From a virus (lineage: Duplodnaviria; Caudoviricetes), in the IMG/VR virus record IMGVR_UViG_3300032288_002134, positions 872 to 64,871 of that record: a stretch of 64,000 nucleotides of DNA; one strand, 5' to 3'. Under the pieces are notes generated by a model, which was not told the origin of the DNA, made no database searches, and saw only the letters and a list, made by a program, of their open reading frames with translations. How positions within the stretch are numbered: position 1 is the first letter of the stretch; the number at the start of each line of letters is the position of its first letter. Below are positions 3,133-50,125 of this stretch, in pieces. Position numbers and translations under genes: made by a program.

Positions 3133-3225
3133 TTATAAAATGATTGCTAATAAATAGCAGTAAGTTAATATTATTGCAGTAATCATAAGACCGCAAAAGA
3201 AATTGTTTAATTCTGTTCTGTCCAT
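3133..3225 (-). CDS. small membrane peptide (30 aa, MDRTELNNFFCGLMITAIILTYCYLLAIIL)
   Basis: Read by eye; ACACCATG start; fills an operon gap. Confidence 0.55.
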   Translation of the reverse strand: MDRTELNNFFCGLMITAIILTYCYLLAIIL

Positions 3226-3497: not shown

Positions 3498-4229
3498 TTA
3501 ATAGTCAGTTATAACAAAACCTGATTTGTCTTTTCGTGCGCTACCTTTAGCCTTTAAGCCTAAAATGACTCCTTTTGGGCAATCAAGCATCAAATCGTCG
3601 CGTGAATCCCCGTCTAATACTGTAAAACCTTTGTATGTTTTCGGTAGTTCCTTTGCGAAAACCATTGCGACGATGCCACCATTTTTTAGTATATCAATAC
3701 ACTGCTCTTCGTTATCCTCAGAACGTGAAAACGTCACAACATATCTGTGCAAAGTTTCTGTTATACGTTCACCTTGCTTTTGCCAAATTTTTGTGTAATC
3801 ATAAAAGACTACATTTGGCGCAATGTCATACATTGAGCAAAGTTGCTCAACTAACTTAATGTCAGACGTTCCATTGAGTCTTACGGCCAATTCGCCTTTT
3901 GTTTTTTTAGCTTTTTTGTTTATTTCTGTGGCAATTTGTTCTAAAAACTTGAACCTATCTTTTAAGTAGAGTTCAGTTCTGTTAATTCTTGCACTTTGAA
4001 CGTTTAAGTATACGCCACGTCCTGCGGTATAAAGGCAAGCTTTTAAACAGCCTTCCGACGCCATAGGGCATAAATTAATACCTTTGCTGTTTTGCTTTGC
4101 GGGAGATAAGTACAAAATTAACGTTTCACGTTCATTTTTAGCCGTTTTTGTGTTAGTTACACCGTCAGATAATAATTTTTTAACTGATTTGATTTCAGTT
4201 TTTGTCAATTCTAAAGTATTGCAATTCAT
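3498..4229 (-). CDS. phage Gp88-like protein with three-Cys motif (radical-SAM-like)
   Basis: CPMASEGCLKAC, VRLNGTSD, FYDYTK, GLKAKG motifs. Confidence 0.7.
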   Translation of the reverse strand: MNCNTLELTKTEIKSVKKLLSDGVTNTKTAKNERETLILYLSPAKQNSKGINLCPMASEGCLKACLYTAGRGVYLNVQSARINRTELYLKDRFKFLEQIATEINKKAKKTKGELAVRLNGTSDIKLVEQLCSMYDIAPNVVFYDYTKIWQKQGERITETLHRYVVTFSRSEDNEEQCIDILKNGGIVAMVFAKELPKTYKGFTVLDGDSRDDLMLDCPKGVILGLKAKGSARKDKSGFVITDY

Positions 4230-4267
4230 AATAATAAAAGTTTAAATAATTAAAAAAAATTGTTAGC

Positions 4268-4324
4268 GCGCTTTTCAGATTCGAACCAAAAAAAGTATTA
4301 AAATACTTTGCAGCCATGCAGCGC
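4268..4324 (-). ncRNA. small tRNA-like structure in the early leader
   Basis: GCGCT/AGCGC closing stem, two short hairpins, T-arm TTTGG-TTCGAAT-CTGAA. Confidence 0.45.
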
Positions 4325-4976
4325 AAAAATTGTTTTTTACCGTCATTTTTATATCTGATTTTCAAAATTCCCCTCAGATACATATCAAAACCTATCATTT
4401 TTTGATATCGCAAATATTAACTCGGGTTAATATTACGTTTGTGCTTTTCACTAAAAGTTGAATGCCACAAAAAGAATAATACTAAAAAAGTATTTTTACG
4501 GTAACCGATTGTCAAAAAACTAAAGCAATTAAACAAAGATGATGTAAAACTACATTATAAATTAATTGCTTTGCGAGTCTTATTTTTATGCTCTATTGAA
4601 TCGCGTATATTGCCTTTTGCAATCGTATCTGTTGCGATTCTGATGTAAACATAAAACGACTTTTTTTATTATTCAAACTTTTAGCAAAATATTTTTTAAA
4701 ATTGATAAAAATAAATTTCCACCAAATAAAAAAATATGTCCAAGATTGGCTGTTTATCGTGCTTTCAGCCGGAATGCCGATGAATACAGCGTTTGAAACC
4801 AAAAGATAGTAATAATCGGGCTTTCAGCGATTGAAAAAAATTTTAAAAAAAAATTAAAATTGATAATAAAATGATTCAGTAATTAGGATTGTGAAGGCAA
4901 AAAAGAGAGGGTAACTATTCTGTCGAAAATAGTTTTTTGGTAAAAAAATGCGTCTCCCAGTGCGCAAAAAAATGCA

Positions 4977-5041
4977 AAAAGTAAACTATAATTGAGAAAA
5001 TAGTTTAGCGAAAAGTAAACTATAATTGATAAAATAGTTTA
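4977..5041. repeat. two 31-bp direct repeats, each an interrupted palindrome TAAACTAT-N10-ATAGTTTA
   Basis: 4977-5007 and 5011-5041 differ at one base. Confidence 0.85.
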
Positions 5042-5438
5042 CAAACAGAGCGATTAAGCATATACGAAGTGTGCGAAGTGTGTGCGATTTGTGTAATGTA
5101 TGCAATGCGATTAATTTATTATATATATGTTATAAGTTTAGTAACAGCGGAGAGCGAGAGCTACGAAGGTAACGACGTATACGAAGATGGTAGGTAGTAG
5201 TGATAAGGGACGTGAGCGTATACGAATGTAGTATATATATGTGCAGGTCATAGCATATACGATGGCTACAGAAAAAGGCAAAAAATCGTAGATGGCAGGT
5301 CGAATGGCACACCCCCCTGCCTCAAAAAAAATCGGTTTTCGATTTTCGCTATAGCTCGTAAACTCGCTATAGTACCCAAACATTATTATTATCTGAATAA
5401 AATTTGTAACTTTACCGAAACCTTTTAAAATTTATCAT

Positions 5439-6104: not shown

Positions 6105-7739
6105 ATGTTTGACAACACAGGTTACACTCCGAAGGATTTGTTGTTCGGAGACGATGCTAGAGCCAAGCTCATTAGTGGCATAAACAAGATTGCCAATGCG
6201 GTGAAGAGTACATTAGGTCCTGGAGGGAATACGGTACTGATAGAGTCACCTCATCACACACATGGTATTACAGTTACGAAGGATGGTGTCACAGTTGCGA
6301 GAGCTGTGGACTTGTTTGATCCGGTGGAGAACCTTGCGGTAAGGATGATGAAGGAGGCAGCGGACAGGACTGCTACCAATGCAGGTGATGGTACTACGAC
6401 AGCGATAGTGTTGACAGAGGCACTGGTGCTTGAGGGTATAAAGAGGCTTACGCCAGAGGTGAACAGGACAGAGGTGCTGAGGCACATGGGTGACATAACA
6501 GGGAGTATAGTAGAGCAGCTTCGTAAGAGGGCTAAGAAAGTGACGAACTCGTTATTGTTGGATGTGGCTACCATATCGGCTAATAATGACAAGGAGATAG
6601 GTCGGATAATATCCGAGGTGTATAAAGAGATAGGGAGAACCGGTATCGTTACCGTTGAGAAATCACAGACCTATGAGACCTATGCAGAGACAACGAAAGG
6701 GATAAAGTTCGACAGAGGGTACACATCCAATCTGTTTATCAACGACCATAAGAAAGACGAGTGCGTATTTGAGGATGTGATGGTGTTGGTTGCCGACATT
6801 GAGATAAGTAACATCCTGCAAGTAGAGAACATACTAAAACCAATCATAACCGAGGGCAAAAAATTGCTCATCATTTCCCCCTGTAGCACTAACGTGGTGA
6901 ATACACTGGCTGCCAATGTAGTGAAAGGCAATGTAAAGGTTTGTGCTGTTGCCCCACCAAACTTCGGGTACAAACAACATGAGCTGATGCAAGACATTGC
7001 TGTCAGTGTAGGTGCTACATACTTCAGCGAGAAGACCGGTGATGATCTGTCAATTATGAACTATGGAGACCTGGGTCATGCTGCCAAGGTCATCGTGTCC
7101 AAAGACAGCACTGTGATCCTTAAATCGGAGTTCAAGTCAAAGCCTGAGATGATTGACGAGAGAGTGAAGCAGTTATGGTCTGCTCACGCTGCTGCAAAGC
7201 GCAAGGCAGACAAAGACTTCATCCTTGAGCGTATCGCTTCGCTTACCGGTGGTATTGGTGTCATCTTCGTGGGTGGTAATACTGACCTGGAGCAGAAAGA
7301 GCTTTATGACAGAGTGGATGATGCGGTATGTGCTGTGAGGTCTGCATTAGAGGAGGGTATCCTTCCAGGAGCAGGCAAGGCATTGTACGAGGTGAACGTG
7401 TTTGGTATCATGGGGGATAATCCAAGCCATGAGAGAAAGGTGGCTGCGCATATCATCCATCATGCACTGTCAAGACCACTATGCCAGATCCTTGAGAACG
7501 TAGGGTTGAGAATAGAGCAGATATATGTTGACAACTGCGATGAGGGCTATGGGTATAATGTCAAGACAGAAGACTTTGGAGACCTTATCAAAATGGGGGT
7601 CGTTGACCCATTGAAGGTGACAAGGAGCGCACTCCAAAATGCTGTTAGCGTAGCGACAACAATTCTTAGCACTAATGCCATCGTCACAATGGCAAGAAGC
7701 TTTGAGATTGCTAACGTATCTAAAAACCCAATGCAATGA
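6105..7739 (+). CDS. groEL: chaperonin GroEL
   Basis: STLGPGG, VTKDGVTVA, AGDGTTTA, GVVDPLKVTRSALQNA; lacks the GGM tail. Confidence 0.97.
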   Translation: MFDNTGYTPKDLLFGDDARAKLISGINKIANAVKSTLGPGGNTVLIESPHHTHGITVTKDGVTVARAVDLFDPVENLAVRMMKEAADRTATNAGDGTTTAIVLTEALVLEGIKRLTPEVNRTEVLRHMGDITGSIVEQLRKRAKKVTNSLLLDVATISANNDKEIGRIISEVYKEIGRTGIVTVEKSQTYETYAETTKGIKFDRGYTSNLFINDHKKDECVFEDVMVLVADIEISNILQVENILKPIITEGKKLLIISPCSTNVVNTLAANVVKGNVKVCAVAPPNFGYKQHELMQDIAVSVGATYFSEKTGDDLSIMNYGDLGHAAKVIVSKDSTVILKSEFKSKPEMIDERVKQLWSAHAAAKRKADKDFILERIASLTGGIGVIFVGGNTDLEQKELYDRVDDAVCAVRSALEEGILPGAGKALYEVNVFGIMGDNPSHERKVAAHIIHHALSRPLCQILENVGLRIEQIYVDNCDEGYGYNVKTEDFGDLIKMGVVDPLKVTRSALQNAVSVATTILSTNAIVTMARSFEIANVSKNPMQ

Positions 7740-39799: not shown

Positions 39800-42700
39800 A
39801 TGAACGAAGAGGCAGTAAAATACGCTTTTGATTTATTTGTAAAAGATGGATATGGTGATAATATAGATGATTTTAGAAATCTAATGAAATCAGATCCAAA
39901 AGCAATTGATTATGTTTTTAATTTATTTGTAAAAAATGGATATGGTGATAATATAAATGATTTTAAAAATCTATTAGGAATTACTCAATCCCAAGCAATC
40001 ACTCCAAAAAAAAAAGGAGAGAGTATGGTATCCGACTCGGAAGTTTCTTCTTCGGGTTTACCATCGGGTGAACAGCCTAAGCTTGAAGAGATACCTTTCT
40101 CTTTGGATTATCAGAAGCAACAGCAGCAAGTACCATTTAAGCCTTCAACTCCGGTAACTCAACCTGAGCAGAAAAGAGACGTGTCTAAACTAAAAGAATA
40201 TGATACTACTCAACAGTATGACAGATATGGTGTGCCTGTTACTCAGTTTCCTACAGCACAAAGAGAAGAGTATTTAGCTAAACCGGTACAGCAGATTGAG
40301 ACAAAAGTCAAGTTTGAAGAAAAGAAAGAGGAGCTTGAGAAACAAGTACCTGGTTTCTTAAAGCCATCTGTAGAGACAATAGACAAAAACTTTTTAGCTA
40401 GAACTTCACTTCCAATAATAAGCGATTTAAACAGACAATACAAAGAAGCAGGTTTTGAGTTTTCAGGCAATCCTGCTGATAAAACATATTTAATAGCAAA
40501 AGCTCCAAATGGACAAACATTAAATATCAATTTAGGATATTTTAATAATGCAGGATATATAAATGATATATCAGATGAAGCAGAAAGGTTAAAAGTTTTT
40601 ATCAAAGAAAATTCTCCATCTATACCGACTGAAAAAGTAAATAAATTACAAAAGGAATACGAGGAAGGTAAGCAAGAATTTCTTACACAAAAACAAATAG
40701 ATGAATCGAATAAATCTCTTTCAAAAGATTTAGAAGATTATGGCAAAAGAAATTTATCTTATACTCAGAGTTTAGATAATTTAAAAAAATCAATTGATGA
40801 ATTTAATGCAATACCTGAAAGTCAAAGAAATACTCCTGAATATATAAATAGAAGAAATGAAATTCAAAAACAAACTGATATATTGATTTCAGAGGAGAAC
40901 AGTCTTAAGCAATTTGAGAAAGATATAGAAGCTAAACAAAGTAATTTAAAAAAGTCACTAGGAGAATATACAAAGTATAAAGAAAATCAAGGTACTTTTG
41001 CAGGTGGTATTTGGAATTCAATATCAAATACAATAAGTTCAATGGTCGCAGGAACTGTTGCTGCCGGATCTGATATTATAACAGGGGCAACTCCTGCTGA
41101 ATGGTTATTAGGTAAAGAAGAATATGAAAAGCAATTCACTCAGATTGCCAAAGAAAAATATGGAATAGAAGGAGATAAATTTGATGACATAATAAGAAAT
41201 GATAAGTTAACAGAAGGAAGAGCAGCTCTTATAAATAGTGAATTAAAAGACAGAGTAAAGAAAGAACGAAAATATGGCAAAGAAGGGGAAGAAGGTGTAA
41301 TAAAATATCTAAGAGGTAGTGTGTATGATTTATTGGCAGATAAAAGCACTACTGAACAATGGGCTGAATTAAAAAATAAATCATTTATACCTCAAGCTAT
41401 ATTGGGTGTTAGTGGTAGCCTTCCAAATATGTTGATGCCTGGGGGTTGGATAGGTCGTGCTTTAGGTACTTTTATATCTACTTCTGATGGTGTATTTAAA
41501 GAAATGGAAAATAGTCCTAATTTCCAAAATATATCTGAAAATGAAAAATGGGCTGTTGCTGCTCCTTTAGGAATGGCTTCTGCTACATTAGAAGAGATAG
41601 GTTTATCTTCATTGTTAAAAGGAACTAATATAACAAAATATATAACAAAGATGGCATTAGACAAAGCAGGTGCTAATGTTACTCCAAATATATTTAAAGG
41701 ATTAGTAAAAAAAGAAGTTCAGGATTTAATATCTAATGGTACTCTAAAAGTAGTAAATGGTTTTTTAGCTGAAGCAGAAACAGGTGCTTTGCAAACAATA
41801 GCGGAATTTTCAATAAAGGATATATACAATACGGTAAAAGATAAAAAAGACGAAAACGGAAACCCTGTAAAGATGTTTGATACGCCTGATACTGTAACTG
41901 AATGGGTTACTGATGTATTGTATGGAGGTGCTGTTGAAGGTGTTGGAGGTCTTATGATTTCATCTGGTATGGCTGCTGCAAGTGCTTTTAATAATGACAA
42001 TTTTGTCAATATGGATAGCGATACTTTCAAGGCATTTGTTAATTCTTCAAATGATTTGAATGTAGAAAAAGCATTTATATCTGATTTGAAAAATAAGATT
42101 GCATCTGGAGATATGACAATGGCTGAAGGCAAGGATTTATTAAATAAATATAGACAAGCCAAAGGACTATTAAATTCATTGCCTAGCGAATTGGATGAAA
42201 AAGATAAAAGAGTAGCTTTAGATTTATTGAGTAAAAGAAAAAAGTTAGAGGATAAGATCCAAGGAAAAGATACAGCATTAGCTAAACCTATTCAGAATAG
42301 AATTGATCAAATTAACGAACAACTAAATCAAATAACAGAGAATGCCATTCAAAAGCAAACAGCAGGTGAAGTACCTGTACAGCCAGAAGCCGGAGTTGGC
42401 GAAGAAGTGGTCCAAGGAAAACCCGAAACAGGACTTGAAGTCACTTCCGAACAAGTTGTCACCGAAGAAAAGCCAAAAGAAGAGGTAGTAACACCTGAAG
42501 GTGTAGTAGAAAAAAAAGATATACAAGTTTACAGAGGTACATCTACTGGAAATAAATCTGATAAAGACGGAGTATCTTACCATACAACAGATAGAGGGTA
42601 TGCAGCGTTTTATGAAACAGGAAAAGAAAAGCCTGATAATAAAGCTTTAGAAGAACTTGAAGCCTTAACTCCTCCGAATAAACCAAATAAAGTAGAATTA

Positions 42701-45700
42701 TCAACTGAAGAGGAAGTAGATGCTTATGTTGATCAATGGATTTCTGACTATGAAGACGCAAAAAGATTCAAACCTGAGACTAAAATACCTTCAAGAGAAG
42801 AAGCTATATCAGAAATGAAACAGAGCGGTTATCCAATATTTCTTACTCAAGAAGAGGTTGATAACGAAAACAAAAAACAAGAGAAAAAATATAATTCTGA
42901 TTTAGAGAAATACAATCAAAAGAAATTAGAACTTGAAGATAAGGCTAAAAATTATTTATCACCCAAAAAAATATCTGGCAATTTCTTTAATCTTGGGATT
43001 GATTTTTCAAAAATGAATCCTCAACAGATATTTGAAAAATTGAAATCATTAGGAATATCAAGTGTGTTTAAAGGCGGTAATTTTTTAGACAATTATCATT
43101 CTGACTTAACAGAATATGCAAGAAAAAATAACATAGATTTCTATGATGGCATAACCGGTGGTGTTCAAGGTAGTATGAATACTGCTCCTCAAGAGATAAT
43201 TGAAGTTTCTAAATTAGAACAAGCACCTGCTGAGGTAAAGACTCCTGAGCAGGAAGCTGACCTATTGGAGGAATTACTGACCGGAAAGAAGAAAGAGCCG
43301 GCAATGACACCTCAAGTGGAAACAATGACACCTGGGGAAAAAGTAATGACACCTGAAGCGAAAGCGGAAGAAGAGATGATAGTTCAGCCTGAGTTTACCG
43401 AGCAGGATCAGGCAAGGAAGAGAGAGCTTGAAGATGCTCTGAAGAAGGCTGACAAGCGTAAGAAGAATGTTATGGTAGGTGAGGTGTCAATGCCAAAGGC
43501 TGAGGTTAAAGCAGAGCTTGATGCATTGAGACAGAAGGAGCAGGCTGTTGTTGAGGCAGAAGTTCAATCTATAGAAAAAATGTTATCAGCTCCTGAGCAA
43601 AAAGACAAAGGAAAGATAAGACAAGCTGTAACAAATGCAGTTAAGGCTATTGCTAAAATATTACCGAATACAAAGATAGTATTACACGAAACTAGTCAAG
43701 ATTATGTAAACGCTACCGGTGATACTGACAATGCATCAGGATTATATGTACCAAGCGCAGATGGAGGTACTATTCATATAAACTTATCTAATGCCAATAC
43801 AAGAACAGTAGGGCATGAGGTATTTCATGCTACATTACTCAGAGGTATTAAGACAGATGCTGAAGCTCAGAGATTAGCGAAAGCAATGATAGGAGCTGTA
43901 GCTAAGTCATTAAAACAATCAGGCGCAAATCAAGAGTTATTAAATGAACTTGAAAATTTCTTGTCTAACTATGATGAGAATATTCAAAATGAGGAATACT
44001 TAGCTGAAGTATTTGGATATCTCGCTGATGGATACCCACAGTTGACAGCACCTGAAAAAAGTATTATCAATAGATTCATTGAGAGAATAATGAAACTGTT
44101 TGGCTTAAAGCCAATGACAGACAAAGAGGTTATTGATTTTATGAATACCCTATCAAGGAAGGTAGCTACCGGTGAAGAGATAACAGAGAAAGAAGCAGGT
44201 ATTACAAAAAGAACTAAAGGAATATCTAATATAACAAAAAGATTTCAAGCAAATTTTATAGATCCTATTTCAAGACTTTCATTTGTTTATGATAAAAATA
44301 GTGAAAAATTTGAAAATTTAAAAAAGCAAGGATTTATAACTACAGATAAATCATTATCTGATTTTAATGGGAAATTTATATTCCTACATCAACCTGATGC
44401 AGCTTTTTCAGGTATGATTTATAAAAATAATGAACTTCTTGTTGAGGGAAAAGGAGGTGTTTTTTATCCTATTAAATTCCATGAAGATGGATATTTTTGG
44501 GCAAGTACATCAAAAACTGCCAAAAAAATGGCAGACGATTTAAATAAAGTATTAAAACAAAACAATGGAATTATTTATATGGCATTAACCTCTGCGCCAT
44601 ATGATAAACTAATGTCAAGCACAACAATGTCAAATGCAATACTTGATTTTTTCTCATCAAAAGCATTTGATAAAAATTTTAATATAACTCAAAAACAATT
44701 AAAAAATGCACTAATATTAGCTGCAAATAATGTAAAAGAAAAACAAAAAAAAGATAAAAAAACGGGAGAAATTACTACTAAAACTATAGGGTTAAATTTA
44801 AATATAAAACAAAATATTTCTTTAGAAAACATTCAAACTTTAATTAAAGAAAAATTAAATCCTGATAATAGTTCATTTGCAGATAGAAAGAATTTTGCTG
44901 AAGAGTTAATAAGAATAATGGCTGAGAATATTAAAGAAGATTCTAAGGCTATTGAACAATTTGGTAAATTATTCTCTGAAGGAATTCAAAATAAATATTT
45001 TAAAGGAATAACAAAAACAGGTAAATTAAGCATTAGTGCTGCAAATATGACTCAAGCACTATCTGAAATGTTTACTGAACCAATTTTAAAAGAAGGAATT
45101 GATAGAGAAAAAGGAGGTCAAGTATATGCTATATTAGAATTGAATGGTAAAGTTAAACCTGTTGAATCTAATAAACACGAATCATATCCTATGGCTATAC
45201 AGTCAGAAGGAAGTGAAAAAGTAAAAGTTCATGTTCTGAATGATAGACAGAATTGGTATGATGTATTTGAAGATTTTGAAACAAATGACATAGTAACTGA
45301 AGATAGAAAAAATAAAATATATCCTACTTCAGGAGTTTCGACAAGAGGATTAAAATTAAATACATCAAAAGTTGATGGCATATCACCTCGTCAGCAGAAA
45401 TCTACTGAAATAACAACAGATAAAGATGCTAAACCTGGCTTTGAAAAAGCTCTTAATTCGCTTAATGAAACTGAACAACAAAGAGAAGAATGGAGAAAAA
45501 CGCATAAAGTAAATCAAAAACAAAAACGTAATCCCATAGTAGAACAAGCTGTAAAAGATTATTATAATGAAAAAATAACTCAAGAAGAATATCTTGATAT
45601 AGTTTCTAAAAACCAACCTATTAAATCTTTTAAAAATGTTCCAAAATTACCAACTTTAAGAGAAATAACAAATTCTTTAGACAGCTCTAAAGTTGCCACA

Positions 45701-48700
45701 GGTATAATTGGATTAACTAAAAATTTAGAAGATGGAGAAAAAGTAGCTTGCAGATTAGATATACCTGCATATGAAGATTTTGATACTTGGGTTGTTTCTA
45801 TACATGATGGAAATAAAGAAGGAAAATCAATTGCATACGGTCAGACAGCTGTACTAAAAAATGTTGATTTTAAAACATTTCCTGGACCTGCAATGAAAAT
45901 TGCAATGGGTACTCAAAGTAAATCTACAATTGCTAGAATGTTTGGTAATTGGGTTAATGAAGATCCAGAATCAGTTCATGCAAGAGCAAAAGAACTAATG
46001 AATGACCCTGCTTGGACACAAGTAGGAATGAATCCATTTAGATATAGTTGGTTTTATGATAAGGCAGATGGAACGCCTATTTCTACAGCTGATGAAGTTA
46101 TTCAAGTGGGTGCATTAGTATTGGCTAAAAATGCAAAAAAAGTATCTACTAAAGATATAATGTTTGAAACTAAATCATCAACAGGATTATCAATAAGGTT
46201 TCAAAAAAATAATTCACAAGAAATTGTAAAACAAGCAAGAGCTAATGGTATATCAGATGCAGGCATAAGAGCCTATTTTAAAAAGAATGGTTTGTCTGAT
46301 ATTGAAATTGATGAATTACTTGAAGGAGAAAAAGGAGCAGGCAAAAAAATTGAGCTTTCTGAAGAGACTCTTCCTGGATACACCAAACTGATGAACAGAA
46401 TAAATGGTCTCATCTCAAGGGGTAGAAAAAGCGGAAAGTCTGATGATGTAATAATGCAAGGTGTTATTGCCAATGTAGAAGCAAACTCACCGGAATATGC
46501 CAATGCTACCGATCAACAGCGTGAGCAGATAATTCGTGACATCAGAAAGATGTTCGGAAAGAAAGAAAAGGCAGCACCATCAGCAGAGAAAATAACCGGT
46601 AAACCTAAATCTAAAAAGGTTACTGTAAATGAAATGGCTGCACTCAAAGACCAAATAAGATTAGAGGCAAGAGCTGCTAGAGAAGCTAAGGGTGATCTTA
46701 ATGCTAAACGTAAAATGTTAGCTGAGGCTATCAATAAACTCGTTGCTAAAGGTACTATTACCTTAAGACAAGCTAACGCTATTATCAAAAGGGTGAACCT
46801 GGTCAACCTTGACAATCCTATAATGGTTGAGAGATTACTTAATTATGCAGAAAAAGTATTTAAAGATGCTGAATATGCGGATAAATTAAGCGAAGCAAAT
46901 AAATTATTTTCATCTATAAAGCAATCGTCAAAGTCAAAAGAAAAGAATGCTGATTTAGTAACTCTTGCAAAAGAATTTTTAGGAATAGACCCATCTATGG
47001 TTGAGAATATAGATGAGTATATTCAAAAGGCTTCTGAGTTAGATAGTAGTTTAAAAGGTTCTAAGGCTACGGCAAAAGGTATGTCTGCTTCTGAAATGAT
47101 AAACATACAAGAAGCTACTGAATACATATCTGAAACAATAAAAGCTCAGGAGCAAAAGATAAAAGAACAGACTGCTGCTGAGATAGAGTCTACAATGGGT
47201 GTAGATGCATCTGATTTGACTTATGAACAAATGCTTGAGTTACTTGAAGATGAAAGTAAACCTATCAATAAAGATAAAGAAAAGGTTATCAGGAGTTTAG
47301 TTAATAAAATGTTTGATACATATTCAAGTATTATCGAATATATGTTTAAGACTGGTAAAAATCCTTTTGTTGTTTATGATGAGAATCTAAAATACGAACC
47401 GGTAACATTTAAAGAATCGGATAAGCAGATTGTTCGTGAATTTATGAAAATGGATCTCGGTAAGCTCAGTGTCAGAGAGGCATTGAAAGCTATGGATGCA
47501 TTAAATAACTTTATTGTCAATCGTTCAGTTGCCAATATGGGTTCTGTAGTAGCCCAATATAAAGCAAAACAAAACGCTGAAATAGTTGACAAAAAAAATA
47601 TAAGAAGCAAACCTGTAAAGTATTTATGGAGTAATACTTTGGGTAAAATGCTATTTGACAATTTTGCTTCATTCCCATTATTGATAGAAAGATTCTTTAA
47701 AAGTAAAGACATTGGTTTGTATGTATCCAGAATGATGGGTTTAAATGATTTGTTTAATGGTGCTTCTTCTGCAAAAACGATAACCGGTGTTGTAGTTAAA
47801 AACTATCTTGACCTATTCTCAAAAACAAAACCAAATGGTAAAGTATTTAATGATGCTTTTAACTTGGTAGAAAGGGGAATGGTTGCATTCATGTCAAGAC
47901 ACAAGATAGGAACGGATGCTCAGATAAAAGAAGAATTTAATGACAGAAAAAATGAAATTGAAGAGTCTATAAAAGCATTGTCTACAGGTACTAAAAGAGA
48001 ACAGGAAAAAGCTAAGGTTTATAAAGAAGTATATGACAAGTTGTTTAAAGATGCAAAGAACGCAGATGACATCAGAAATAATGCGGATAATAAAAATATA
48101 GAAGCTGTAGATTGGTGGGTTAACGAATGGAAAAATCATTATGATGAGTTAGCTGATGTATCATTAAAAATATACAATACAAAACTGGATAAGGATTCTT
48201 ATTACACCACCGATAGATATTCTAAATTGGAAGGGGTAGAAAAAGAAATAGATCTTGAGGATAATGTTTCAGCATTTAGCTTTAACAATGGAAATATATC
48301 TGAAAAGAAAGCAGGATCTTTAATGGAGACAAGAGATAAGAAATCGGGTCTTCCAAAAAATAAAGATGGAGAAGTCACAAGGTTTGTTGATTTATCTTTT
48401 GATGCCGTAAATGCAAATTCATTATACGATGCACTGACAGACATTAAAACTGCCTATGCTATTAAACAAGTAAAAGCATTTATGAAAACAGATGCTTTCA
48501 AAAGAATTGTACCTGATAAAGAAGAAAGAGATATATTAGGAAATAGAATAAACTTAGCTGTTAGAAATTTAAGAAATCAAAAATTATTTGATTCAAGTAC
48601 AATGAGTAAAGCTGTAAAGGGATTAAATAAATTTTCAAGCATTGGGTCTACAATGGCATTAGCCGGTATAGTGCAACCTTTTAAACAAACTATTCCTATA

Positions 48701-50125
48701 GCATTTAATACTGCTATAAATACAGGTAGATTTTTTGATTTATTACGGATACTAACAAATTCAGATGTAAAAGATTTTATTAACAATTCAGGATATTCAA
48801 TAGCAAATAGAGGTATAGAATCAAGTGTTCACCTTGAAAGTATAAATAAAAAATTAGATGAGGCTGCAAAGACAAAAGCTGAATATTTAGGTAATAAAAT
48901 ATTAGAATTGAATGAGATGTATATGAAACTTTTCTTGGCGAATCCTGATGCTTGGATAGCTAGAGCATCTTGGATGGCTTATTATGAAAAAGGGTTAAGA
49001 AAACAAGGTCTATACAAAACAACTGAAACAATAAAAACAGCTTCAGGAACTCGTGAGGTTACTAAAAAAGGAATTGATTATAGTAAGCATAAAATAAACA
49101 AAGAAGCTGCTGATTATGCTCAGATGATGATTGACAGACAGCAAAACATAACCGATACTAGATTGGCAGGTTCTATATATTCAGGTGAAAATGCCTTCCA
49201 AACTATGATGACAAAAATATTTTTGCCACTCGCCAGTTTTAGAATAAATCAACATTTGAGAATGTCTAATGACTTAGCAACTACATTTAGTAAAACTACA
49301 AGTTGGCAAGAAAAAAGAGAAGCATTAACATCTCTTTCAGGTGCAATAGTAGAAATGATTGTATTTAGAGCCATAGGAATAGGTGCTAGTTATTTATTTT
49401 TTGAATTAGCATCAATGATAAGAGGAGAAGAAGAAGATGAGGAGAAAAAGAAAAGAAAAGAAAAAATGGCTTCAAATACATTAAAAGGTATATTAACTGG
49501 AGCTGTAACAGATATATTATCTCCTATTCCTGTTACAGATTATCCGGTAAAGTATTCTGTTAATGCTGCAATGGATTTCACTCAGGATTTGATTGGAATG
49601 GGTGATGAAGATAAACTATCTTTATATGTTGAAAATATTCCTTCATTTTCAAGTGTATTAGGGACTGCCGGTATCTTTTTAGATAAAGTAGCAGATATAA
49701 AAGAAACAGCTCAAATGGCTGCTACAGGTAAGTTTGAACAAGATGTATTTGGTAAAAAAATTGAGAAAGAGATAAGCGAAAAGGACAGACAAATATTAGC
49801 ATGGTCTTTAATCCCATCAATACTCACAAATACTATATTACCTGGTGCGCCAGAGACAAATAATATTATGAGTAAAGTTAAAAAAGCTATTAAGAAAGAA
49901 GGTAAAACTGCCGATCAAAAAGAAAAATATGATGCATTTGGTGGGCATTCTTCTGAAAAAGAATTTAGAACGGAAAATCCTGAAAAGTACATGGAATCTT
50001 TGCAGCCAGGTGGTAGTTTATATGAATACAAAATGAGAGAAAATCAGAAAAAAATGGAAGAACTTCCAGAGAAATTACAAAAAAAGATGGAGGAGACTAT
50101 GAAAAAAGCAAATAAAATGCAGTAA
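39800..50125 (+). CDS. giant polyvalent virion protein (3441 aa) with zincin HExxH and possible ADP-ribosyltransferase-like segment
   Basis: TVGHEVFH...EEYLAE; VYRGT...SYHTTDRGYAAFY. Confidence 0.75.
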   Translation: MNEEAVKYAFDLFVKDGYGDNIDDFRNLMKSDPKAIDYVFNLFVKNGYGDNINDFKNLLGITQSQAITPKKKGESMVSDSEVSSSGLPSGEQPKLEEIPFSLDYQKQQQQVPFKPSTPVTQPEQKRDVSKLKEYDTTQQYDRYGVPVTQFPTAQREEYLAKPVQQIETKVKFEEKKEELEKQVPGFLKPSVETIDKNFLARTSLPIISDLNRQYKEAGFEFSGNPADKTYLIAKAPNGQTLNINLGYFNNAGYINDISDEAERLKVFIKENSPSIPTEKVNKLQKEYEEGKQEFLTQKQIDESNKSLSKDLEDYGKRNLSYTQSLDNLKKSIDEFNAIPESQRNTPEYINRRNEIQKQTDILISEENSLKQFEKDIEAKQSNLKKSLGEYTKYKENQGTFAGGIWNSISNTISSMVAGTVAAGSDIITGATPAEWLLGKEEYEKQFTQIAKEKYGIEGDKFDDIIRNDKLTEGRAALINSELKDRVKKERKYGKEGEEGVIKYLRGSVYDLLADKSTTEQWAELKNKSFIPQAILGVSGSLPNMLMPGGWIGRALGTFISTSDGVFKEMENSPNFQNISENEKWAVAAPLGMASATLEEIGLSSLLKGTNITKYITKMALDKAGANVTPNIFKGLVKKEVQDLISNGTLKVVNGFLAEAETGALQTIAEFSIKDIYNTVKDKKDENGNPVKMFDTPDTVTEWVTDVLYGGAVEGVGGLMISSGMAAASAFNNDNFVNMDSDTFKAFVNSSNDLNVEKAFISDLKNKIASGDMTMAEGKDLLNKYRQAKGLLNSLPSELDEKDKRVALDLLSKRKKLEDKIQGKDTALAKPIQNRIDQINEQLNQITENAIQKQTAGEVPVQPEAGVGEEVVQGKPETGLEVTSEQVVTEEKPKEEVVTPEGVVEKKDIQVYRGTSTGNKSDKDGVSYHTTDRGYAAFYETGKEKPDNKALEELEALTPPNKPNKVELSTEEEVDAYVDQWISDYEDAKRFKPETKIPSREEAISEMKQSGYPIFLTQEEVDNENKKQEKKYNSDLEKYNQKKLELEDKAKNYLSPKKISGNFFNLGIDFSKMNPQQIFEKLKSLGISSVFKGGNFLDNYHSDLTEYARKNNIDFYDGITGGVQGSMNTAPQEIIEVSKLEQAPAEVKTPEQEADLLEELLTGKKKEPAMTPQVETMTPGEKVMTPEAKAEEEMIVQPEFTEQDQARKRELEDALKKADKRKKNVMVGEVSMPKAEVKAELDALRQKEQAVVEAEVQSIEKMLSAPEQKDKGKIRQAVTNAVKAIAKILPNTKIVLHETSQDYVNATGDTDNASGLYVPSADGGTIHINLSNANTRTVGHEVFHATLLRGIKTDAEAQRLAKAMIGAVAKSLKQSGANQELLNELENFLSNYDENIQNEEYLAEVFGYLADGYPQLTAPEKSIINRFIERIMKLFGLKPMTDKEVIDFMNTLSRKVATGEEITEKEAGITKRTKGISNITKRFQANFIDPISRLSFVYDKNSEKFENLKKQGFITTDKSLSDFNGKFIFLHQPDAAFSGMIYKNNELLVEGKGGVFYPIKFHEDGYFWASTSKTAKKMADDLNKVLKQNNGIIYMALTSAPYDKLMSSTTMSNAILDFFSSKAFDKNFNITQKQLKNALILAANNVKEKQKKDKKTGEITTKTIGLNLNIKQNISLENIQTLIKEKLNPDNSSFADRKNFAEELIRIMAENIKEDSKAIEQFGKLFSEGIQNKYFKGITKTGKLSISAANMTQALSEMFTEPILKEGIDREKGGQVYAILELNGKVKPVESNKHESYPMAIQSEGSEKVKVHVLNDRQNWYDVFEDFETNDIVTEDRKNKIYPTSGVSTRGLKLNTSKVDGISPRQQKSTEITTDKDAKPGFEKALNSLNETEQQREEWRKTHKVNQKQKRNPIVEQAVKDYYNEKITQEEYLDIVSKNQPIKSFKNVPKLPTLREITNSLDSSKVATGIIGLTKNLEDGEKVACRLDIPAYEDFDTWVVSIHDGNKEGKSIAYGQTAVLKNVDFKTFPGPAMKIAMGTQSKSTIARMFGNWVNEDPESVHARAKELMNDPAWTQVGMNPFRYSWFYDKADGTPISTADEVIQVGALVLAKNAKKVSTKDIMFETKSSTGLSIRFQKNNSQEIVKQARANGISDAGIRAYFKKNGLSDIEIDELLEGEKGAGKKIELSEETLPGYTKLMNRINGLISRGRKSGKSDDVIMQGVIANVEANSPEYANATDQQREQIIRDIRKMFGKKEKAAPSAEKITGKPKSKKVTVNEMAALKDQIRLEARAAREAKGDLNAKRKMLAEAINKLVAKGTITLRQANAIIKRVNLVNLDNPIMVERLLNYAEKVFKDAEYADKLSEANKLFSSIKQSSKSKEKNADLVTLAKEFLGIDPSMVENIDEYIQKASELDSSLKGSKATAKGMSASEMINIQEATEYISETIKAQEQKIKEQTAAEIESTMGVDASDLTYEQMLELLEDESKPINKDKEKVIRSLVNKMFDTYSSIIEYMFKTGKNPFVVYDENLKYEPVTFKESDKQIVREFMKMDLGKLSVREALKAMDALNNFIVNRSVANMGSVVAQYKAKQNAEIVDKKNIRSKPVKYLWSNTLGKMLFDNFASFPLLIERFFKSKDIGLYVSRMMGLNDLFNGASSAKTITGVVVKNYLDLFSKTKPNGKVFNDAFNLVERGMVAFMSRHKIGTDAQIKEEFNDRKNEIEESIKALSTGTKREQEKAKVYKEVYDKLFKDAKNADDIRNNADNKNIEAVDWWVNEWKNHYDELADVSLKIYNTKLDKDSYYTTDRYSKLEGVEKEIDLEDNVSAFSFNNGNISEKKAGSLMETRDKKSGLPKNKDGEVTRFVDLSFDAVNANSLYDALTDIKTAYAIKQVKAFMKTDAFKRIVPDKEERDILGNRINLAVRNLRNQKLFDSSTMSKAVKGLNKFSSIGSTMALAGIVQPFKQTIPIAFNTAINTGRFFDLLRILTNSDVKDFINNSGYSIANRGIESSVHLESINKKLDEAAKTKAEYLGNKILELNEMYMKLFLANPDAWIARASWMAYYEKGLRKQGLYKTTETIKTASGTREVTKKGIDYSKHKINKEAADYAQMMIDRQQNITDTRLAGSIYSGENAFQTMMTKIFLPLASFRINQHLRMSNDLATTFSKTTSWQEKREALTSLSGAIVEMIVFRAIGIGASYLFFELASMIRGEEEDEEKKKRKEKMASNTLKGILTGAVTDILSPIPVTDYPVKYSVNAAMDFTQDLIGMGDEDKLSLYVENIPSFSSVLGTAGIFLDKVADIKETAQMAATGKFEQDVFGKKIEKEISEKDRQILAWSLIPSILTNTILPGAPETNNIMSKVKKAIKKEGKTADQKEKYDAFGGHSSEKEFRTENPEKYMESLQPGGSLYEYKMRENQKKMEELPEKLQKKMEETMKKANKMQ
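42342..42488 (+). CDS. overprinted 48-aa basic protein (MPFKSKQQVKYLYSQKPELAKKW...) in the +1 frame of the giant gene
   Basis: ATG after AACTAAATCAAATAACAGAGA leader; TAG at 42486-42488. Confidence 0.6.
   Translation: MPFKSKQQVKYLYSQKPELAKKWSKENPKQDLKSLPNKLSPKKSQKKR

What the first reader, a model, noticed from the sequence alone, without database searches (positions are those of the whole stretch)
42342..42488. Hidden gene overprinted inside the giant virion gene
Seen: the +1 frame encodes MPFKSKQQVKYLYSQKPELAKKWSKENPKQDLKSLPNKLSPKKSQKKR, with an A-rich leader resembling real late starts, while the main frame here is a low-complexity linker (NAIQKQTAGEVPVQPEAG). From recollection, MPFKS..Q..YL...PE.AK.W occurs as a stand-alone small phage gene. 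Inference: true dual coding, invisible to standard gene callers.
Basis: partly seen in the sequence, partly recalled or inferred. Interest (0 to 1): 0.7.

Follow-up and report, generated by a model that had tools for sequence, protein, structure and literature searches.

The report
Small gene nested inside giant phage gene
A complete 48-codon gene for a small, strongly basic protein sits in a shifted reading frame inside a 3,441-codon phage virion gene; evolution has kept it intact in a hundred related phages although standard annotation does not list it.

Summary
The ORF is real: 42342-42488 (+), ATG, 48 aa, +1 frame of the 3441-aa ORF 39800-50125. Its length alone is not beyond chance: 42% of synonymous-codon shuffles give an equal or longer ORF. 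Comparison decides the matter. All 83 of 83 sources examined keep an ATG-started 41-66 aa homologue in the same +1 offset inside an open host frame. Constraint flips at the ATG: pN/pS is 0.36 in the host frame just upstream, then 0.18 nested against 2.5 host inside the ORF. Free-standing homologues exist in actinophages, cyanophages and marine phages. A profile finds 2538 protein clusters, mostly 43-80 aa starting MPFKS. All 10 free-standing copies have stops in the host-equivalent frame; nested copies have none and avoid T-ending codons. In 8 of 31 relatives found through host-frame domains, the same site carries an unrelated DUF6496-like small gene. Verdict: a genuine nested gene, probably an older small gene swallowed by the giant ORF. 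Translation and function are untested.

The parts
42342..42488 (+). Nested gene: 48-aa basic protein (net charge +12). Predicted two-helix hairpin (residues 6-15 and 17-26) followed by a Lys-rich tail. Belongs to the MPFKS small-protein family (phrog_1375-like).
   Evidence: ORF; phrog_1375, E 4.4e-4; 15 metagenome proteins, 66-92% identical; kept in 83 of 83 sources; selection on this frame; AF2 mean pLDDT 86.6; 2538 clusters.
39800..50125 (+). Host gene: 3441-aa giant, mosaic protein and the last gene of the + strand structural block. The equivalent gene is annotated 'structural protein' in Flavobacterium elemo phages.
   Evidence: ORF, last of the + strand run; annotation of homologues; mosaic similarity; terminase, portal and virion proteins upstream.
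42341..42490 (+). Host-frame reading of the same DNA: a 50-codon acidic E/V/Q/G-rich linker (net charge -7) between conserved host domains. It is kept free of stops but is otherwise unconstrained at the amino-acid level.
   Evidence: composition; host-frame pN/pS 2.5; open frame kept by codon choice; the upstream domain aligns up to this point in relatives.
42312..42341 (+). A-rich leader before the nested ATG, unpaired in the predicted fold; putative Shine-Dalgarno-less initiation region.
   Evidence: sequence; A enrichment and PWM score between real starts and control ATGs; A-rich upstream ends in other phages' contigs; upstream stretch unpaired in the MFE structure, z -0.31.

Best explanation
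42342-42488 is a genuine protein-coding gene nested in the +1 frame of the giant virion-protein gene.

Shown by comparison:
- The same DNA is read twice.
- Selection acts on the amino-acid sequence of the small protein.
- The host frame is required only to stay open, and it reads as an acidic flexible linker between two host domains.

Inferred:
- Ribosomes start independently at the nested ATG on the late mRNA of the giant gene. They would use the A-rich, unstructured, Shine-Dalgarno-less leader that I recall as typical of Bacteroidota.
- The product is a 41-66 aa protein with a two-helix hairpin and a lysine-rich tail.
- The small gene is the older partner. It belongs to a large family of free-standing phage genes and was enclosed when the giant ORF came to read through it.
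- In other members of the giant-gene family the same site carries an unrelated small basic gene (DUF6496-like), so the junction behaves as a slot for nested small genes.

Function is unknown. My best guess, at about 30%, is a virion or head-associated protein that binds nucleic acid or an acidic partner and is made together with the giant protein.
For: 1. Retention. Window, L001, L002 and 80 IMG/VR loci make 83 sources, and all 83 have an ATG-started 41-66 aa homologue inside an open host frame at offset +1. Clustering all 546 nested ORFs of at least 35 aa in giant ORFs gives this family as the largest cluster (100 loci). The DUF6496-like family is second (15 loci) and no other cluster exceeds 9.

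2. Selection. Nucleotide entropy by nested-frame codon position is 0.46 / 0.24 / 0.89 over 72 distinct sequences, so the host frame's third position is the least variable. Conservation begins exactly at the ATG. Nei-Gojobori pN/pS is 0.18 nested against 2.5 host. In loci found through a host-frame domain the values are 0.26 against 1.71. In the 39 codons just upstream the pattern is reversed: host 0.36, +1 frame 1.06.

3. Independent view. Lake-metagenome contigs of other phages match the window only from 42342 to about 42410-42434, with summed depth up to about 800 against 5-13 in the flanks. Of 20 variant places in the ORF, 11 fall on nested codon position 3, and the indels are 3 nt long.

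4. Dual-coding codon choice. T at nested position 3 is 2.3% over 3519 codons, against 19% in free-standing homologues. It is 0 of 1595 before AA/AG/GA-starting codons, where it would create a host-frame stop. All 10 free-standing homologues have 1-5 stops in the host-equivalent frame. This also explains the local GC of 0.476 against 0.321 for the giant gene.

5. Homology from the first Met to free-standing genes:
- Phage 023Pt_psg01, 39-aa annotated CDS.
- Mycobacterium phage Indlulamithi gp3, which matches phrog_1375 at E 6.4e-10.
- Streptomyces phage FlowerPower gp48.
- Unannotated ORFs in C75C1, P-RSP2 and S-CBS2.
- A profile search finds 2538 clusters at E<=1e-3. Of the top 150, 96 are at most 80 aa and 118 start MPF[KRQ]S.

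6. Fold. AF2 with 78 sequences gives mean pLDDT 86.6 and two helices.

7. Start context. The A fraction at -20..-1 is 0.59 nested, 0.46 at real starts and 0.36 at control +1 ATGs. Only 5.5% of controls reach the nested median PWM score.
Against: - There is no direct evidence of translation, and no RNA run holds the stretch.
- The ORF length alone is not significant.
- The window's own leader scores only -0.15 on the start-site PWM, against means of 4.07 for real starts and -4.68 for controls. The upstream A-richness is also confounded by the A-rich codons of the conserved host residues (E, N, K, I).
- The phrog_1375 match of the window peptide is weak (E 4.4e-4) and Pfam has no match.
- The gene is dispensable or replaceable. 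Of 31 distinct contigs found through host-frame domains only, 19 carry this family (one cut by the contig end), 8 carry the DUF6496-like ORF, and 4 carry none.
- One metagenome protein (P0021, 1075 aa) carries the domain in frame at its C-terminus, so a fused form may exist.
- Most loci were found with the peptide itself, which inflates apparent conservation. The domain-ascertained sets and only partly offset this.
Confidence: 0.85

Rival explanations
1. Programmed +1 ribosomal frameshift. Some ribosomes translating the giant ORF shift into the +1 frame near 42342 and terminate at 42488. This would give an ~847-aa N-terminal fragment with a basic 48-aa tail instead of a free small protein.
For: The same-strand +1 arrangement is compatible with it. 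One metagenome protein (P0021, 1075 aa) ends with the domain in frame after a long N-terminal part.
Against: There is no conserved shift site: entropy just upstream of the ATG is 0.8-1.9 bits and conservation begins at the ATG itself. The ATG is kept in 83 of 83 sources, including variants that change the host residues around it. Free-standing homologues begin with the same Met-Pro-Phe-Lys-Ser. No unusual RNA structure is predicted (z -0.31). I could not retrieve a locus for P0021, so it may be an assembly frameshift.
Confidence: 0.05
2. The conservation is at the nucleotide level (an RNA or DNA element, or a recombination hotspot that spreads the segment) and the +1 ORF is a by-product that is not translated.
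For: The segment is an island of high nucleotide identity shared by many otherwise unalignable phages. Elemo phage L001 carries a second, truncated copy of the first ~30 nt, which suggests recombination at this sequence.
Against: Variation has a three-base period in the nested frame, with most change at its third position. Synonymous divergence in that frame is high (pS 0.66) while pN is 0.12, so the protein and not the nucleotides is conserved. The peptide is homologous to free-standing genes with different codons. AF2 folds it with high confidence. There is no excess RNA structure.
Confidence: 0.04
3. Chance ORF in a GC-richer, stop-poor linker; the resemblance to a small phage gene is coincidental.
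For: 42% of synonymous shuffles give an ORF this long. The peptide is Lys-rich and of low complexity, which can inflate weak HMM hits.
Against: The ORF is kept in 83 of 83 sources with its start codon. Metagenome proteins match at E down to 1.7e-13. The profile search gives 64 clusters at E<=1e-10. The selection signature is on the nested frame.
Confidence: 0.01
4. The giant ORF is not translated through this stretch. It would be two proteins with the small gene between them, and the open host frame would be incidental.
For: The host frame shows no amino-acid constraint here (pN/pS 1.7-2.5). Host ORF lengths differ widely among loci.
Against: The host frame is open across the stretch in all 83 sources, whereas 10 of 10 free-standing homologues have stops in that frame. 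T-ending codons that would create host stops are absent: 0 of 1595. All indels are multiples of three. This is active maintenance of read-through.
Confidence: 0.03

Closest known systems
Lambda Rz/Rz1 embedded spanin genes (recalled from textbook knowledge, not checked with a tool here)
   Same: A complete small gene lies wholly inside a larger phage gene in the +1 frame, on the same strand, with its own start. Both products would be made from one late mRNA.
   Different: Rz1 is a lipoprotein that pairs with Rz in lysis. The nested peptide here has no Cys or lipobox. The host is a 3441-aa virion protein and not a lysis gene. The nested gene has many free-standing homologues.
Overprinted genes of small phages and viruses (phiX174 B in A, E in D). 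For reviews I saw only search listings and abstract starts: PMC8227390, PMC3494269.
   Same: Two proteins are read from one DNA stretch in different frames. One frame dominates the selection and the other shows inflated pN/pS.
   Different: Those nested genes are taken to have arisen de novo and have no free-standing relatives. Here the nested frame is the widespread, presumably older gene and the host's linker is the restricted, presumably younger reading. The genome is a 65-kb dsDNA phage, not one under extreme size pressure.
phrog_1375 (function unknown), e.g. Mycobacterium phage Indlulamithi gp3, placed directly after the portal gene
   Same: Sequence family: the window peptide matches at E 4.4e-4 over residues 3-47 and gp3 matches at E 6.4e-10. 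Size and basic tail are similar.
   Different: The members seen here are free-standing genes. The window copy is nested and its codons are adapted to keep a second frame open.
Pfam DUF6496 (PF20106) / phrog_2423 small proteins
   Same: They occupy the same slot: in 8 of 31 domain-ascertained relatives a 43-69 aa DUF6496-like ORF starts at the equivalent ATG in the +1 frame. It shows the same selection pattern, pN/pS 0.31 nested against 2.0 host.
   Different: It is unrelated in sequence to the window's peptide, which has no Pfam match. The Pfam scores of 22.3 and 20.8 are below the gathering cut-off of 24.

Membership tests
Nested out-of-frame protein-coding gene | ORF and start codon kept in relatives | tested here: met
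   83 of 83 sources have an ATG-started 41-66 aa ORF at offset +1. The family forms a cluster of 100 loci.
Nested out-of-frame protein-coding gene | Purifying selection on the nested frame, distinct from the host frame | tested here: met
   pN/pS is 0.18 nested against 2.5 host (72 sequences) and 0.26 against 1.71 in the domain-ascertained set. Upstream control: host 0.36, +1 frame 1.06. Entropy by codon position supports this.
Nested out-of-frame protein-coding gene | Host frame actively kept open across the overlap | tested here: met
   No stops in 83 of 83 nested copies, against 1-5 stops in 10 of 10 free-standing homologues. T-ending codons before AA/AG/GA codons: 0 of 1595.
Nested out-of-frame protein-coding gene | Product is translated | not testable with these tools
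   No RNA run holds the stretch. No ribosome profiling or proteomics is available here.
phrog_1375 / MPFKS small-protein family | Significant profile match over most of the length | tested here: met
   phrog_1375 E 4.4e-4, residues 3-47 on profile positions 17-60 of 70. My own family profile finds 2538 clusters at E<=1e-3 and 64 at E<=1e-10.
phrog_1375 / MPFKS small-protein family | Collinear from the initiator Met (MPFKS start) | tested here: met
   118 of the top 150 representatives start MPF[KRQ]S. Free-standing examples are shown.
Pfam DUF6496 | Pfam HMM match | tested here: not met
   The window peptide has no Pfam hit at E<=10. Only the alternative ORFs in L100 and L101 match, below the gathering score.
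Programmed ribosomal frameshift site | Conserved slippery sequence and/or stimulatory structure just upstream of the frame change | tested here: not met
   Upstream positions are variable at 0.8-1.9 bits. RNA fold z-score is -0.31.
Rz/Rz1-type embedded spanin pair | Nested product is a lipoprotein with a lipobox Cys (feature recalled, not from a call) | tested here: not met
   The 48-aa peptide has no Cys and no hydrophobic signal sequence.

The most novel reading that the evidence does not exclude
The junction is a dedicated slot for nested genes in the giant virion-protein genes of a large group of aquatic Bacteroidota phages. Free-standing small basic-protein genes of at least two unrelated families (MPFKS/phrog_1375-like and DUF6496-like) were swallowed when the giant ORF came to read through them. 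On this reading the host's acidic linker is the younger, overprinted frame, which is the reverse of classical overprinting. Slot contents and neighbouring host modules would be exchanged by recombination at the shared ATGCC start. The basic peptide would act together with the giant protein or the packaged DNA. If true, the large multi-domain genes of phages hide a layer of conserved small proteins that gene callers cannot see.
Probability: 0.45. Interest if true: 0.85.

Novelty: new variant of a known kind. Interest (0 to 1): 0.8.

Why it matters
- Gene callers forbid fully nested genes, so this protein is missing from the phage records I opened, although it is one of the best-conserved sequences these phages share.
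- It is a clean, testable case of dual coding in a large dsDNA phage. It has more than 100 natural replicates, a free-standing outgroup, and isolated phage-host pairs (Flavobacterium elemo phages) for experiments.
- It suggests a route to overlapping genes that runs opposite to de novo overprinting: a growing multi-domain ORF engulfs an existing small gene.
- The finding of two unrelated small genes in the same slot suggests the arrangement itself is selected. Possible reasons are co-expression, stoichiometry, or protection of the small gene from loss.
- It also gives a handle on a large small-protein family (2538 clusters, no Pfam entry) of unknown function.

Tried and rejected
- ORF length as evidence: rejected, because 42% of shuffles match it.
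- blastn of 3 kb around the site against phage records: no match.
- tblastn with the L082 peptide: no match.
- Pfam on the peptide and its homologues: nothing.
- Pfam on larger proteins that carry the domain: only DUF6321 in one, with no functional clue.
- Pfam and PHROGs on the giant protein: only a Phage_L5_gp82-like / phrog_586 stretch at residues 1990-2104.
- Foldseek of the AF2 model against the PDB: no match at E<=0.001.
- ESM Atlas: nearest clusters are unnamed viral hypothetical proteins; the DUF3008 lead at 0.85 was not pursued.
- Locus for P0021, the in-frame C-terminal fusion: none found.
- RNA evidence: no RNA holder listed.
- A quick regex tally under-counted family 1 because the pattern was too strict, so I do not use it.
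- Literature searches found nothing on this nested gene, on DUF6496, or on nested genes in these phages. I saw listings and abstract starts only. The single 'MPFKS' hit that I opened (PMC12919940, one passage) is unrelated.
- Supplements were closed, so annotation tables of the elemo-phage paper (PMC7077304, listing only) were not seen.
- I did not run complex prediction, because I make no binding claim.
Full report
**Observation**

The window holds an ATG-started ORF at 42342-42488 on the + strand. It lies in the +1 frame of a 3441-aa ORF at 39800-50125.

The host frame reads NAIQKQTAGEVPVQPEAG... at this place. Over 50 codons that stretch is rich in E, V, Q and G and has net charge -7, whereas the nested peptide has net charge +12.

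The window is almost the whole of a 64,871-bp viral record with direct terminal repeats, and it holds only this one copy of the peptide. Upstream on the same strand lie the terminase large subunit, the portal and virion structural proteins, and the giant gene closes that + strand block. Its homologue in Flavobacterium elemo phages is annotated 'structural protein'.

The ORF's length by itself means little. In 1000 synonymous-codon shuffles of the giant gene, 42% produced a +1/+2 ATG ORF of at least 48 aa.

**Homologues**

- The peptide matches PHROG family phrog_1375 (function unknown) at E 4.4e-4 and has no Pfam match.
- A search of predicted proteins found 15 small proteins of 42-54 aa that are 66-92% identical over the aligned part.
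- tblastn against phage records hit 81 records. Of these, 68 are Flavobacterium elemo phages and one is a freshwater podovirus.
- In the two records I opened, the match lies inside a giant gene of about 3,670-3,860 codons, at the same +1 offset, as an ATG-started ORF of 42-43 aa.

Counting the window, L001 and L002, all 83 of 83 sources have an ATG-started ORF of 41-66 aa. In every case it is nested at offset +1 in an open host frame. Four variants change residues 2-5 or delete the Pro codon but keep the ATG.

**Which frame is under selection**

Over the first 37 codons of 72 distinct sequences, nucleotide entropy by nested-frame codon position is 0.46 / 0.24 / 0.89. The host frame's first position is therefore the most variable and its third the least, which is the opposite of what a host-frame-driven pattern would show. 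Entropy falls from about 1.5-1.9 bits to 0 exactly at the ATG.

| Region and data set | Nested or +1 frame pN/pS | Host frame pN/pS |
|---|---|---|
| Inside the ORF, peptide-ascertained (72 sequences) | 0.18 | 2.5 |
| Inside the ORF, loci found via a host-frame domain (5 distinct sequences) | 0.26 | 1.71 |
| 39 codons just upstream of the ATG (16 sequences) | 1.06 | 0.36 |

The dominant constraint therefore switches frames at the nested start codon.

An independent view comes from laying contigs of four lake and freshwater metagenomes on the window. Contigs of other phages match only from 42342, the ATG, to about 42410-42434. Summed depth there reaches about 800, against 5-13 in the flanks. 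The unmatched upstream ends of those contigs are A-rich. Of 20 variant places in the ORF, 11 lie on nested codon position 3, 6 on position 1 and 3 on position 2. The listed indels inside the ORF are 3 nt long.

**Dual-coding adaptation**

Free-standing homologues exist:
- A 39-aa annotated CDS in phage 023Pt_psg01.
- Mycobacterium phage Indlulamithi gp3, directly after the portal gene, which matches phrog_1375 at E 6.4e-10.
- Streptomyces phage FlowerPower gp48.
- Unannotated ORFs in phage C75C1, Prochlorococcus phage P-RSP2 and Synechococcus phage S-CBS2.

All 10 free-standing copies examined (six of this family, four of the second family described below) have 1-5 stops in the frame that corresponds to the host frame. 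The nested copies have none.

Nested copies almost ban T at their third codon position. It occurs in 2.3% of 3519 codons, against 19% in free-standing homologues and 37% in the giant gene's own third positions. It never occurs (0 of 1595) before a codon starting AA, AG or GA, where it would create a host-frame stop. This explains the local GC spike of 0.476 against 0.321. The excess of G at that position (55%) also explains why the host frame reads as an E/V/G/A-rich linker.

**Size of the family**

A profile of 78 nested peptides, searched against 1.84 billion representative proteins, found 2538 clusters at E<=1e-3 and 64 at E<=1e-10. Among the top 150:
- 96 are at most 80 aa long.
- 118 start MPF[KRQ]S.
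- 27 are longer than 150 aa. In those I inspected the domain is N-terminal.
- One (P0021, 1075 aa) carries the domain in frame at its C-terminus. I could not retrieve a locus for it.

AlphaFold2 with the alignment predicts two helices (residues 6-15 and 17-26) and a flexible basic tail, with mean pLDDT 86.6. Foldseek found no solved relative.

**Ascertainment control and a second nested gene**

I searched IMG/VR with host-frame domains only. One query was the block at residues 1272-1868, downstream of the site (15 loci). The other was the domain ending just before the site (22 loci). Six contigs are shared, which leaves 31 distinct contigs:

| State at the junction | Contigs (of 31) |
|---|---|
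| MPFKS ORF (one cut by its contig end) | 19 |
| Different +1 ORF of 43-69 aa at the homologous ATG | 8 |
| No nested ORF (L090, L099/L106, L123, L124) | 4 |

The second ORF type begins MPLKK and contains a conserved AIALS motif. It starts right after the conserved host residues ...ISE(D/N)A. It matches Pfam DUF6496 at E 1.7e-4 and 5e-4, below the gathering score, and phrog_2423 at E 2.7e-9. It shows the same selection pattern: pN/pS 0.31 nested against 2.0 host, from 12 sequences. It is also nested in four further loci and free-standing on four small contigs.

Clustering all 546 nested ATG ORFs of at least 35 aa inside the giant ORFs gives these two families as the two largest clusters (100 and 15 loci). 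No other cluster exceeds 9.

In a different phage type (L082), the MPFKS ORF is nested at +1 in a 381-aa gene between the portal gene and the ORF that follows it, which I take from its position to be the capsid gene.

**Mechanism**

Shown:
- The DNA is dual-coding in the evolutionary sense.
- The nested protein's sequence is under purifying selection.
- The host frame is maintained open but is otherwise free to vary.

Inferred: independent initiation at the nested ATG.
- The start is invariant, and free-standing homologues begin at the same Met.
- The upstream 20 nt are A-rich: 0.59, against 0.46 at real starts of these phages and 0.36 at other +1 ATGs. Only 5.5% of control ATGs reach the nested median PWM score.
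- The leader is unpaired in the predicted fold, with no unusual structure (z -0.31).
- That Bacteroidota use A-rich, Shine-Dalgarno-less leaders is my recollection and comes from no call.
- Caveat: the conserved host residues upstream are themselves encoded by A-rich codons.

Inferred: the direction of origin. The small-protein family is far more widespread than the giant gene. It occurs in actinophages, cyanophages and marine phages and spans 2538 clusters. The small gene is therefore probably the older partner and the host's linker the younger reading.

Function is unknown. Several things make a virion or head-associated, polyanion-binding role my best guess, at about 30% confidence:
- The strong positive charge.
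- The position of several free-standing copies in head-morphogenesis modules.
- Nesting in the late giant virion gene.

**Rivals**

- *Programmed +1 frameshift.* This is disfavoured by the absence of any conserved shift site or structure and by the conserved ATG. P0021 keeps it alive at a few per cent.
- *Nucleotide-level element.* This is disfavoured by the three-base periodicity, by high synonymous and low non-synonymous divergence in the nested frame, by homology to differently coded free-standing genes, and by the confident fold.
- *Chance.* This is excluded by the comparative data.
- *Host frame not read through.* This is disfavoured by the active avoidance of host-frame stops.

**Novelty**

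Embedded +1 genes (lambda Rz1 in Rz, recalled) and overprinted genes of small phages are known. Six literature searches found no description of this case, of DUF6496, or of nested genes in these phages. I saw listings and abstract starts only, plus one passage of an unrelated paper. Supplements were closed.

The new elements are:
- The scale, with more than 100 natural replicates.
- A nested gene that has a large free-standing family.
- Codon-level evidence for maintenance of both frames.
- Two unrelated small genes that alternate at one slot.

I rate it a new variant of a known kind and of high interest. The open points are translation, virion association and function.

Noticed in passing
L100 9306-9476; L101 5075-5284; also L105, L110, L114, L117, L121, L122, L125-L128: At the site homologous to the window's nested ATG, other members of the giant-gene family carry an unrelated +1 ORF of 43-69 aa. 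It matches DUF6496 and phrog_2423 and is under nested-frame selection (pN/pS 0.31 against 2.0). Free-standing copies lie on small contigs L129-L132.
   Followed up: yes
L082 4033-4185 inside ORF 3915-5060: In a different phage type, the MPFKS ORF is nested at +1 in a 381-aa gene that lies between a 794-aa portal-like gene and the next large ORF. The nesting is therefore not tied to the giant gene.
   Followed up: partly
L001 about 3187-3219 and 3583-3711: The elemo phage has a second, truncated copy of the nested start (about 10 codons, then a stop) some 400 nt upstream of the intact one. The host-frame motif QEDAVQKQ is repeated on both sides of a YRGTS-type module that in the window lies after the nested ORF. 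This suggests module shuffling by recombination at this sequence.
   Followed up: partly
P0021 (metagenome protein, 1075 aa): This is the only top hit in which the MPFKS domain is in frame at the C-terminus of a long protein. It could be a natural fused or unfused arrangement or an assembly frameshift. No locus could be fetched.
   Followed up: partly
L134 2501-2611 (S-CBS2), L133 2501-2623 (P-RSP2), L086 2498-2605 (C75C1): Free-standing members of the family sit unannotated in gaps of published phage genomes. In S-CBS2 and C75C1 they lie among other small, very basic ORFs.
   Followed up: partly
window 43814-43828 (residues ~1339-1343 of the giant protein): An HExxH motif (HEVFH) lies in the block conserved with the elemo phage (H, E and second H invariant in alignment A3). 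It may be a zincin-like protease domain in the giant protein. No Pfam match.
   Followed up: no
window 6105-7739 (+): A 544-aa ORF matches a PHROG chaperonin GroEL family (phrog_5725, E 1.8e-133), which suggests a phage-encoded chaperonin.
   Followed up: no
window 42298-42302: In contigs of runs X2 and X3, a 1-nt insertion at 42298 is paired with a 1-nt deletion 3-4 nt later. This is a compensated frameshift in the host frame just upstream of the nested start.
   Followed up: no
L073, L031, L022, L006, L012: The host open frame around the nested ORF varies from about 900 to over 3500 codons among loci. In some it ends a few hundred bases after the nested ORF, so the giant gene may be split differently in different phages.
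   Followed up: no
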